64,000 nt of DNA from the IMG/VR virus record IMGVR_UViG_2799112330_000002, positions 1-64,000 of that record. One strand, written 5' to 3'. The notes under the pieces were generated by a model that did not search any database, had not been told where the DNA came from, and saw only the letters and a list, made by a program, of their open reading frames with translations. Positions within the stretch are counted from its first letter, which is position 1, and every line of letters begins with the position of its first letter. Below are positions 23,819-24,831 of the stretch, piece by piece. This DNA is from a virus. Lineage: Duplodnaviria; Heunggongvirae; Uroviricota; Caudoviricetes. Both the position numbers and the translations under genes were made by a program.

Positions 23819-23889
23819 GGTCCATTGGTATAGTGATTGTGCCGCTGACCCTAAACCAGCAGAGGTGGGTTTGATTCCTACATGGGCCA
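23819..23889 (+). tRNA. putative amber suppressor tRNA (CTA)
   Basis: GGTCCAT/ATGGGCC; GCTGA-CCCTAAA-CCAGC; C33 and a 31-39 mismatch are atypical. Confidence 0.65.
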
Positions 23890-23892
23890 CAA

Positions 23893-23987
23893 AAAAGGAA
23901 GAGTTCAGGTTAGAATCCTGTTTGAAAACGGACTACACATCAAGGTTTGCCCGTTTGGTGTATAGAATTTGGAACAGCACGCCTTTT
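23893..23987 (+). ncRNA. permuted tRNA mimic without the Y-like stem
   Basis: AAAAGG/CCTTTT closing; CAGG-TTAGAAT-CCTG T-like arm, AAACGG/CCGTTT, then D-like arm GTGT..GG..GCAC. Confidence 0.45.
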
Positions 23988-24173
23988 ATTCAATAACAAA
24001 TTTAAATTAATTAAGATTATGAAACAGTTTTGGTAGATTAACGATTTAGGATTTCCGTAATTGTTTATGTATTTAATAGGAAGCTTAGACAATTTTTAAG
24101 TATATTCGATATGTCTAAGTAAAAGTTAGAATATACATTTTTTATAAATACATAAATATATAAACATACAATT

Positions 24174-24533
24174 ATGGAAAAGAAGAACAACAATGAGTTC
24201 GTAATGAACGCAACAACAAAAGAACAGTATTTGAAATTCAAAGAAGATTTAAAGAAAGAATCTTATCATCCTCATTCATTTTACATTGCCTATTATATTT
24301 TCAAGCATCGTATAGGCAGAGATCTAGAAACAGATTTAGTAGATACCAATGTCATTGAGAAATATCTTGATGATGTAGTTATTCCTGCGTGCTACAAAGG
24401 CTTGTATCATGGCCGTATTGTAGGTACAGGCGGAGAATGCATTAACTATGCAAAAAGATATTTCAAGGATTATGTAAGATCTGTTTATAATAAATATGCA
24501 ACCTATGAACCAGATGGAAAACGTGAAGAATAA
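24174..24533 (+). CDS. hypothetical protein
   Basis: ORF track. Confidence 0.7.
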   Translation: MEKKNNNEFVMNATTKEQYLKFKEDLKKESYHPHSFYIAYYIFKHRIGRDLETDLVDTNVIEKYLDDVVIPACYKGLYHGRIVGTGGECINYAKRYFKDYVRSVYNKYATYEPDGKREE

Positions 24534-24831
24534 ACTTTATGTGTTGATTGATCAAAATTTGGATCCTATCTATGGAGCAGTCCAAGGTGGTCATGCTGTT
24601 GCGCAGTTCTTGATAGATCATGGGTAGAACAAGTGGGCTAATGAATATCTTATATATGTTTCAGTAGACATCAATAAGTGGGAGAAACTATTGAATGATT
24701 CTGCAGATTTATATAATACTTCATTCAGTAAGTTCTATGAACCTGATTTGAATAATAGATTGACAAGCATTGCAGTTCATACTGAAGATTTCATATTAGA
24801 AAGAAAACTAAAGAAGGAGAAGCTACTTTAA
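24514..24831 (+). CDS. Pth2-like (peptidyl-tRNA hydrolase II fold) protein with in-frame TAG at 24625-24627; missed by ORF track
   Basis: KLYVLIDQNLDPIYGAVQGGHAVAQFLIDHG*NKWANEYLIYV...FYEPDLNNRLTSIAV; family-like motifs on both sides of the TAG. Confidence 0.7.

What the first reader, a model, noticed from the sequence alone, without database searches (positions are those of the whole stretch)
23819..24831. Amber tRNA next to an amber-containing leader and an amber-interrupted Pth2-like gene, in an otherwise standard-code genome
A CUA-anticodon tRNA is followed by a mini-ORF at 24019-24060 (MKQFW-TAG-INDLGFP-TAA) with overlapping hairpins, then a Pth2-like ORF with TAG mid-domain. Other long genes read without internal TAG and some end in TAG (10540, 10954, 12917, 46114), so this is not full code-15 recoding. 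It may be a local amber read-through switch or an early or relict stage of recoding. The tRNA has C33 and may be weak, and the TAG could simply be a nonsense mutation.
Basis: partly seen in the sequence, partly recalled or inferred. Interest (0 to 1): 0.75.

Follow-up and report, generated by a model that had tools for sequence, protein, structure and literature searches.

The report
Suppressor-tRNA-gated phage leader and Pth2 operon
A 410-kb rumen phage that uses the normal genetic code carries its own UAG-reading tRNA next to a small operon with two conserved UAG "locks", so the operon is probably made only while that tRNA overrides the stop signal; I found no paper describing such a switch.

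Summary
All three observed features are real. A tRNA with a CUA anticodon lies at 23819-23890. A 13-codon leader (MKQFW-UAG-INDLGFP-UAA) lies at 24019-24060. A gene with a Pth2 fold lies at 24514-24831, with an in-frame TAG at 24625-24627. The host contig (410 kb, a relative of the Lak megaphages) uses the standard code, and this is its only TAG-interrupted gene.

None of this is chance or a lesion:
- Two independent metagenomes keep the TAG.
- The same codon is TAG in 24 of 85 related huge-phage loci and in 32 of 51 distinct metagenome variants.
- Fifty-one of the 85 loci have a leader. In all 50 where a suppressor tRNA was found, the leader's internal stop matches the anticodon (TAG/CUA 37, TAA/UUA 9 in Lak-type loci, TGA/UCA 4).

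In all 15 loci of the window's leader type, the last leader codons (G-F-P-stop) pair over 10-13 bp with the start codon region of the next gene. My best reading is that read-through of the leader UAG melts this helix and switches on the 119-aa gene and the Pth2-like gene. The Pth2-like gene then needs a second read-through.

Nothing here is experimental, and the enzyme's substrate is unknown. This scan has reported the same kind of cassette repeatedly on other DNA. I found no publication describing it.

The parts
23819..23890 (+). tRNA with CUA anticodon (amber suppressor type). Its loop is C32 C33 CUA A37 A38, positions A31 and C39 are mismatched, and no CCA is encoded.
   Evidence: Rfam match at 36.3 bits against a gathering score of 29. 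Homologous tRNAs lie 105-180 nt upstream of the leader in all 15 loci of the window's type. Cloverleaf with covariation. RNA-library contigs cover it (this is weak evidence).
24019..24060 (+). Leader mini-ORF MKQFW-UAG-INDLGFP-UAA, with the internal TAG at 24034-24036.
   Evidence: The peptide is conserved on both sides of the stop in 15 loci. The only changes seen in close strains are synonymous: 24023 A>G and 24027 G>A.
24052..24063 (+). 5' arm of the long-range helix (TTTCCGTAATTG: the last leader codons plus the stop).
   Evidence: It pairs with 24169-24180. Duplex energy is -15.0 kcal/mol against -5.1 for shuffles. RNAalifold finds the same helix in 13 of 13 sequences.
24084..24136 (+). 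Structured spacer: helix A (24084-24090 with 24113-24119) interleaved with helix B (24100-24107 with 24129-24136). A U-run follows at 24137-24145.
   Evidence: Both helices are kept in related loci with quite different sequences. They form either a pseudoknot or two mutually exclusive hairpins.
24169..24180 (+). 3' arm of the long-range helix (CAATT-ATGGAAA). It contains the start codon of the 119-aa gene.
24174..24533 (+). 119-aa four-helix protein of unknown function. It is a conserved partner gene of the Pth2-like gene.
   Evidence: Homologues lie directly upstream of the Pth2-like gene in at least 23 loci. Model pLDDT is 87. No family or fold match was found.
24514..24831 (+). Pth2-fold gene of 105 codons with an in-frame TAG at 24625-24627 (codon 38, in the loop after helix 1). 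It overlaps the upstream gene by 20 nt.
24816..24843 (+). Terminator-like hairpin at the end of the operon.

Best explanation
This is a self-contained operon gated by amber read-through. The phage encodes a tRNA that reads UAG.

Directly downstream lies a short leader whose sixth codon is UAG. If a release factor wins at that UAG, the ribosome leaves 15 nt before a helix that joins the last leader codons (GGA TTT CCG TAA) to the start codon region of the next gene, and that gene stays masked. If the tRNA wins, the ribosome translates on to the UAA, unwinds the helix and exposes the start codon. A slow Pro-stop termination or a stall may hold it open for longer.

The 119-aa protein is then made, and through the 20-nt overlap ribosomes enter the Pth2-like gene. 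That gene needs a second UAG read-through at codon 38. Both proteins would therefore be produced roughly in proportion to suppressor activity, the second one more steeply.

Shown by comparison: the parts, their conservation, the match between leader stop and anticodon, and the complementarity between leader and start region. Inferred: that the tRNA is made and charged, that read-through occurs, that the helix controls initiation, and what the two proteins do. My guess for the proteins is that they handle peptidyl- or aminoacyl-tRNA linked to suppression or to ribosome rescue. A phage tmRNA gene lies 370 nt upstream.
For: (1) Synteny. Of 85 loci with a homologue of the Pth2-like gene, 75 hold a suppressor tRNA within the fetched stretch. 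In many of them it is the only tRNA in 10 kb.

(2) Matching of stop and anticodon. It holds in 50 of 50 loci: TAG/CUA 37, TAA/UUA 9, TGA/UCA 4. The same leader types recur in a second collection.

(3) The in-frame TAG sits at the same loop codon in two well-separated clades of the protein tree and in 32 of 51 distinct metagenome variants. One relative has CAA (Gln) there.

(4) The window's genome uses the standard code and has no other TAG-interrupted gene.

(5) The duplex between leader end and start codon region spans 10-13 bp and scores -11 to -15 kcal/mol in 15 of 15 loci, against about -5 for shuffles. RNAalifold recovers it. Analogous pairings appear in the other leader types.

(6) The leader changes seen in strains are synonymous. 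The motif R/K-G-(x)-P after the stop is kept with different codons across leader types.

(7) Pth2 fold: Foldseek probability 1.0, TM 0.6-0.75 to 2zv3, 1xty and 1q7s.

(8) The tRNA family shows compensatory changes, so it is under selection.
Against: - There are no experimental data. Contigs from RNA libraries cannot show expression.
- The tRNA lacks U33, has a 31-39 mismatch, and ARAGORN rejects it.
- 33 of 354 long phage ORFs, and about a quarter of long ORFs on the other contigs of the bin, end in TAG. No extra back-up stops follow them, so strong suppression should be costly.
- The long-range helix is nearly invariant, so covariation support is thin: 3 GC-to-GU changes and 1 GU-to-AU change. 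Its two arms are also constrained as coding sequence.
- In the window, helix B plus the U-run could act as a terminator instead.
- 34 of 85 loci show no recognisable leader. One locus (L017) has TAA at the gated codon next to a CUA tRNA.
- The Pth2-like protein misses the Pfam threshold and seems to lack the Lys of the archaeal GKGK motif.
Confidence: 0.7

Rival explanations
1. The switch acts on transcription. The two interleaved helices after the leader are an antiterminator (24084-24090 with 24113-24119) and a terminator (24100-24107 with 24129-24136, plus the U-run). The ribosome's position in the leader, at the UAG or at the UAA, decides which one forms, as in classical attenuation.
For: The helices are mutually exclusive on paper, and both are kept by covariation. 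In the window, L008, L013 and L023 the second helix is followed by a T-run.
Against: Most related loci (L007, L010, L011, L017 and others) have no T-run after the second helix. The simple terminator scan finds nothing there. The pairing of leader end with start codon region is present in all 15 loci. The UAA is 24 nt from the first helix, so a ribosome terminating at the UAA would barely reach it.
Confidence: 0.15
2. The TAGs are leftovers of an ancestral TAG-recoded genome, or tolerated nonsense mutations. The tRNA is a relict and the mini-ORF is chance, so there is no regulation.
For: The nearest named relatives (Lak phages) are TAG-recoded: ORF coverage of their flanks rises from 0.39 to 0.84 under code 15. 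The tRNA has unusual features.
Against: The same two stops are conserved across dozens of diverged loci whose flanks look standard-code. Leader stop and anticodon co-vary across three stop codons. Lak itself has a sense codon at the gated position and a TAA leader. The tRNA shows compensatory evolution.
Confidence: 0.05
3. The phage uses code 15 in a stage-specific way, with late genes recoded, and this region is just one part of that.
For: This is the published model for crAss-like and other recoded phages (PMC9523058, PMC10879173).
Against: Across 410 kb, code 15 raises ORF coverage by only 1.6 points, less than code 4 does. No 20-kb window stands out, and no second TAG-interrupted gene was found.
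Confidence: 0.03

Closest known systems
Stop-codon-recoded phages with phage-encoded suppressor tRNAs (code 15: Lak megaphages, crAss-like phages; PMC9523058, PMC10879173; Borges et al. 2022 from my own knowledge)
   Same: A phage-encoded tRNA(CUA) and TAG read as sense. The closest named homologues of the gated gene are in Lak phages. The nearest tRNA by sequence is the CUA-anticodon tRNA of a crAss-like phage (78% over 63 nt), annotated tRNA-Gln in that record.
   Different: Here the genome uses the standard code, and only two codons in 410 kb, both in one small operon beside the tRNA, need read-through. The use looks regulatory rather than a genome-wide reassignment.
Leader-peptide translational attenuation with arrest peptides (ermCL; SecM with RAGP; RAPP/RGPP peptides ApdA, ApdP, ApcA: PMC7897499, PMC10951233, PMC12992588)
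   Same: A short upstream ORF whose translating ribosome is positioned to open an RNA helix that masks the next gene's start. Relatives carry R-G-(x)-P after the stop.
   Different: The input would be read-through of a stop codon by the operon's own tRNA, not a drug or secretion activity. The window's leader ends in L-G-F-P-stop and lacks the defining R-[AG]-P-P motif. The published family is not from phages and is not gated by a stop codon.
prfB (RF2) autoregulation through an in-frame UGA (my own knowledge)
   Same: An in-frame stop codon inside a translation-factor gene makes the gene's expression depend on how that stop is decoded.
   Different: prfB uses a +1 frameshift and senses release-factor activity. 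Here the event is plain read-through by a dedicated tRNA, and the product has a Pth2 fold.
AMD1 C-tail: ribosomes that read through the stop pause at the next in-frame stop (PMC13025110)
   Same: A read-through product ends at a second stop where ribosomes are held, with regulatory effect.
   Different: AMD1 is eukaryotic, uses no dedicated tRNA, and the outcome is repression by ribosome queuing.
Phage lambda bar minigenes and host Pth (my own knowledge)
   Same: Tiny phage ORFs are linked functionally to peptidyl-tRNA hydrolase.
   Different: bar minigenes poison Pth-deficient hosts by peptidyl-tRNA drop-off. No suppressor tRNA or gated hydrolase gene is involved.

Membership tests
tRNA (Rfam RF00005) | Covariance-model score above the gathering threshold over the full model | tested here: met
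   36.3 bits against 29, model positions 1-71.
tRNA (Rfam RF00005) | Cloverleaf kept by compensatory changes in relatives | tested here: met
   22 consensus pairs, 8 of them with changes on both sides, in 12 homologues.
tRNA (Rfam RF00005) | Canonical U33 and a 5-bp anticodon stem | tested here: not met
   C33 and an A31-C39 mismatch. About a dozen sibling phage suppressor tRNAs in the set share the CC-CUA-AA loop, and a close strain has UU at positions 32-33.
Amber suppressor tRNA | Anticodon CUA | tested here: met
   Loop CC-CUA-AA.
Amber suppressor tRNA | Is aminoacylated and inserts an amino acid at UAG | not testable with these tools
   There are only indirect hints: one relative has CAA (Gln) at the gated codon, and the nearest tRNA by sequence is the CUA-anticodon tRNA of a crAss-like phage, annotated tRNA-Gln.
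PTH2 peptidyl-tRNA hydrolase (PF01981) | Match to the Pfam model | tested here: not met
   No Pfam family at E <= 0.01. A profile search against PDB sequences finds only 2zv3 at E 0.24. PHROG 3668 'hydrolase' matches at 3e-9.
PTH2 peptidyl-tRNA hydrolase (PF01981) | Pth2 fold | tested here: met
   Model pLDDT 92.6. Ranks 1-15 in the PDB are Pth2 proteins (2zv3, 1rlk, 1xty, 1q7s, 3erj, 1wn2, 1rzw) plus one protein of unknown function (2gax), with probability 0.97-1.0. TM by query is 0.59-0.75, except 0.54 for the NMR model 1rzw.
PTH2 peptidyl-tRNA hydrolase (PF01981) | Active-site residues and hydrolase activity | tested here: inconclusive
   The Q-G-G-H-A and E-P-D motifs are invariant. The Lys of the archaeal GKGK stretch falls in a gap of the HMM alignment. 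Activity was not testable.
Genome-wide TAG reassignment (code 15) | Coding density at least 5% higher under code 15 for contigs over 100 kb (criterion in PMC10879173) | tested here: not met
   85.4% against 87.0% over 410 kb.
RAPP/RGPP-type arrest peptides | C-terminal R-[AG]-P-P (or RAGP) core | tested here: not met
   The window has L-G-F-P-stop. Relatives have RGFP-stop, RGPD, RGSP or RGP-stop.
RAPP/RGPP-type arrest peptides | Ribosome stalling shown | not testable with these tools
   This needs toeprinting or ribosome profiling.
Leader-peptide translational attenuator | A short upstream ORF whose 3' part pairs with the translation start region of the next gene | tested here: met
   A 12-bp duplex between 24052-24063 and 24169-24180. 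It is present in 15 of 15 loci of this leader type.

The most novel reading that the evidence does not exclude
The module is a portable sensor and governor of stop-codon suppression. The leader measures how well the operon's own tRNA overrides one chosen stop codon. It sets the level of a Pth2-like enzyme and its partner, which act back on that tRNA or on the products of read-through. The TAG, TAA and TGA versions of the module would then be the toolkit that lets huge phages run, tune or change a second genetic code inside a standard-code host.
Probability: 0.25. Interest if true: 0.9.

Novelty: new variant of a known kind. Interest (0 to 1): 0.75.

Why it matters
Phage suppressor tRNAs are so far discussed mainly as tools for genome-wide recoding. 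Here a standard-code jumbo phage appears to use one as a regulatory signal. Its operon is wired so that a leader and an enzyme gene can be completed only by read-through, and the stop codon co-varies with the anticodon across three stop codons.

If confirmed, this would be a natural switch that reports suppression efficiency. It would link Lak megaphages to standard-code relatives and give a handle on how suppression is kept tolerable or how codes change. It would also offer compact parts (tRNA, leader, helix) for synthetic control of translation. In addition, it points to an unknown role for a Pth2-fold protein and its partner in phage infection.

Tried and rejected
I therefore could not read the codon behind the 'Q' that database proteins P0001-P0020 show at the gated position. 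It may simply be TAG translated under code 15.
- Pfam gave nothing for either protein.
- The 119-aa protein has no Foldseek PDB match. VIA wide gives at best Z 5.0 on generic helical bundles. The Atlas hint to sigma-70 region 2 is weak and unsupported, so I dropped it.
- Genome-wide code 15 or code 4 is rejected.
- A search for further TAG-gated genes in the 410-kb contig, both mid-gene and near the N-terminus, found none.
- There is no enrichment of back-up stops after TAG-ending genes.
- Similarity of the tRNA to the phage's own tRNAs does not reveal its amino acid.
- No release-factor gene lies on the phage contig. The two in the bin are on other contigs.
- The Rfam scan of 21000-26000 at E <= 1 showed no ribozyme-like element beside the tRNA.
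- RNA-library contigs cover the tRNA, the leader and part of the 119-aa gene. Contigs cannot prove transcription, and uncovered parts mean nothing.
- Five literature searches found no description of this module.

Full report
**Where the window lies.** The window is the first 64 kb of a 410,106-bp contig with 29% G+C. The contig sits in a bin whose other contigs have 25-27% G+C. It carries a tRNA array at both ends, a tmRNA gene and phage-type genes. The closest named relatives of the gene studied here are the Prevotella Lak megaphages. I read the contig as a probably circular jumbo phage. Near-identical DNA turns up in bovine gut metagenomes from several studies.

**The observation.** Rfam's tRNA model matches 23819-23889 at 36.3 bits (gathering score 29) over the whole model. 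The anticodon loop is CC-CUA-AA and the last anticodon-stem pair is mismatched. ARAGORN does not call this tRNA.
- The mini-ORF runs from 24019 to 24060: M K Q F W, TAG, I N D L G F P, TAA.
- The frame 24514-24831 is open except for a TAG at 24625-27.
- Read through, that frame gives a 105-residue protein. Its AlphaFold model has pLDDT 92.6, and its first fifteen PDB ranks are archaeal and human Pth2 proteins plus one protein of unknown function (probability 0.97-1.0, TM by query 0.54-0.75).
- Pfam does not reach it. PHROG 3668 'hydrolase' does, at 3e-9.

**The genetic code.** Over all 410 kb, ORFs of at least 100 aa cover 85.4% under code 11, 87.0% under code 15 and 87.7% under code 4. No 20-kb window stands out, and 42 of 433 such ORFs end in TAG.
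- I listed every pair of same-frame coding segments separated by one stop. Apart from 24514-24831, every convincing TAG case is simply two neighbouring genes with an ATG a few codons after the stop; two further candidates look like non-coding frames.
- A scan for N-terminal gating also found nothing.
- The phage therefore uses the standard code, and the only two codons that seem to need amber read-through lie within 800 nt of the tRNA(CUA).

**Not an error or a lesion.** Contigs from two other studies span 24625-27 without a difference there. In the leader, the only changes seen are synonymous (AAA to AAG, CAG to CAA). One RNA-library contig of a relative has TT instead of CC at tRNA positions 32-33.

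**Comparative evidence.** A profile of the protein recovered 80 IMG/VR loci, in addition to five phage-database loci that also hold a homologue.
- ARAGORN and an nhmmer search with the window-type tRNA find a suppressor tRNA in 75 of the 85 loci. Most often it lies 12-150 nt behind the gene or, as in the window, 1.3-1.9 kb ahead of it. In many loci it is the only tRNA in 10 kb.
- The codon that is TAG in the window is also TAG in 24 of these loci, which fall into two well-separated clades of the protein tree. It is TAG in 32 of 51 distinct variants from a second collection. The flanks of most of these loci gain little under code 15.
- The truly recoded Lak phages (coverage 0.39 to 0.84) have Asn or Asp at this position instead. 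One relative has CAA, Gln.

**The leader.** It is conserved as a peptide on both sides of its stop, in several types:
- MKQFW-TAG-I..LGFP or MKQHW-TAG-IDIRGFP, followed by a stop (15 loci including the window).
- MKKNSFW-TAG-VSDQFW-TAG-L..IRGPD (about 14 loci).
- MKHQH-TAG-VLSFDRGSP (10 loci).
- MKLQHW-TAA-VTLSRGSP in Lak phages.
- MKRI-TGA-TRNKGPD in four loci.

In every one of the 50 loci where both a leader and a suppressor tRNA could be read, the internal stop is the one cognate to the anticodon: TAG/CUA 37, TAA/UUA 9, TGA/UCA 4. This is the strongest single argument that the leader stop is decoded by the neighbouring tRNA. These represent at least three independent classes, not fifty independent events.

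**How the leader may act.** In all 15 loci of the window's type, the last leader codons and the stop (GGT/GGA TTT CCG/CCA TAA) are complementary to the start codon region of the next ORF (..TTATGGAAAA..).
- The duplexes span 10-13 bp and score -11 to -15 kcal/mol, against about -5 for shuffled partners.
- RNAalifold recovers this as the closing helix of the whole intergenic RNA.
- In the window the arms are 24052-24063 and 24169-24180.
- A ribosome released at the UAG (24034-36) should not reach the helix. One that reads on to the UAA (24058-60) must melt it.
- Other leader types show analogous pairings between the read-through part and the next start region.
- Between the arms lie a hairpin and two interleaved helices that are kept with quite different sequences. 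In the window the second of these is followed by a U-run, so a transcriptional component cannot be excluded.
- The helix itself hardly varies, so its support comes from conservation and complementarity more than from covariation.
- The recurring R/K-G-(x)-P after the stop recalls SecM and the RAPP/RGPP arrest peptides (PMC10951233, PMC12992588). The window's L-G-F-P-stop does not meet that family's defining motif. Slow termination after a C-terminal proline is the most I would infer, and that rests on my own knowledge.

**The proteins.** The 119-aa protein (24174-24533) has homologues directly upstream of the Pth2-like gene in at least 23 loci. It folds as a four-helix protein (pLDDT 87) and matches nothing informative. 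The Pth2-like protein keeps the invariant Q-G-G-H-A and E-P-D motifs, but the Lys of the archaeal GKGK stretch is not evident. Their substrates are unknown. A tmRNA gene lies 370 nt upstream of the tRNA, which fits a theme of ribosome rescue or tRNA recycling.

**The tRNA.** Twelve homologues keep the cloverleaf through compensatory changes, and all have a mismatch at 31-39. About a dozen phage suppressor tRNAs in the set share the CC-CUA-AA loop, including that of L046, the phage with the closest 119-aa homologue. C33 is therefore a recurring trait rather than decay. Its effect is unknown.

**Caveats.**
- Suppression should extend 33 of 354 long phage ORFs, and a quarter of those on the other contigs of the bin. 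No back-up stops are enriched after them.
- 34 loci have no recognisable leader.
- L017 has TAA at the gated codon beside a CUA tRNA.
- Nothing here is experimental.

**Earlier work.** Notes from this scan describe the same kind of cassette on many other genomes, with the same reading. They are AI notes, not independent evidence. I had reached the matching of stop with anticodon, the R-G-P motif and the start-masking helix from my own calls before reading the second set of notes. Five full-text searches found no paper describing the module.

Noticed in passing
window 23125-23454: A phage-encoded tmRNA (Rfam 84 bits; tag peptide GDNFEYRMAA) lies 370 nt upstream of the suppressor tRNA. This puts a ribosome-rescue RNA next to the Pth2-like operon.
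   Followed up: partly
window 23894-23980: The stretch between the tRNA(CUA) and the leader reaches by far the highest contig depth in two rumen metatranscriptome runs (up to about 380 in X17). It may be a stable small RNA.
   Followed up: no
window 23653-23787 and 23491-23642: Further tRNA-like elements with insertions. Rfam gives a partial tRNA match at 23717-23780 (25.9 bits). Other notes of this scan already cover them.
   Followed up: no
contig C82 (window = bases 1-64000): The tRNA arrays run up to both contig ends (1-23 kb and 408.6-410.1 kb), so the 410-kb contig is probably a circular jumbo-phage genome binned with a bacterial MAG (7% contamination).
   Followed up: partly
L019, L040, L041, L047 (IMG/VR loci): These loci carry the TGA/UCA version of the module. 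The 10-kb flanks of L019 and L040 look TAG-recoded (ORF coverage 0.32 to 0.58 and 0.37 to 0.69 under code 15). Lak phages, also TAG-recoded, carry the TAA/UUA version. The module may prefer a stop that still terminates in its genome.
   Followed up: partly
L043, L073, L082: In these loci a TGA replaces the invariant Trp41 codon of the Pth2-like gene, and their flanks gain most under code 4. They are probably TGA=Trp phages.
   Followed up: no
L017:5001-5330: TAA instead of TAG at the gated codon of the Pth2-like gene, beside a CUA tRNA and a TAG leader. This is an exception that may be a broken copy.
   Followed up: no
window 23992-24018 and the same place in related loci: A conserved A/T-rich motif (..AACAAATTAAATTAA..) sits at a fixed distance before the leader ATG in the TAG-leader types. 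It may be a phage promoter or a translation start signal.
   Followed up: no
window 26128-26901 (-), 25035-25811 (+), 20879-21907 (+): Neighbouring genes: an N-acetylmuramidase with a peptidoglycan-binding domain, a 258-aa protein with a C-terminal zinc ribbon, and a DUF559/restriction-endonuclease-like protein.
   Followed up: no
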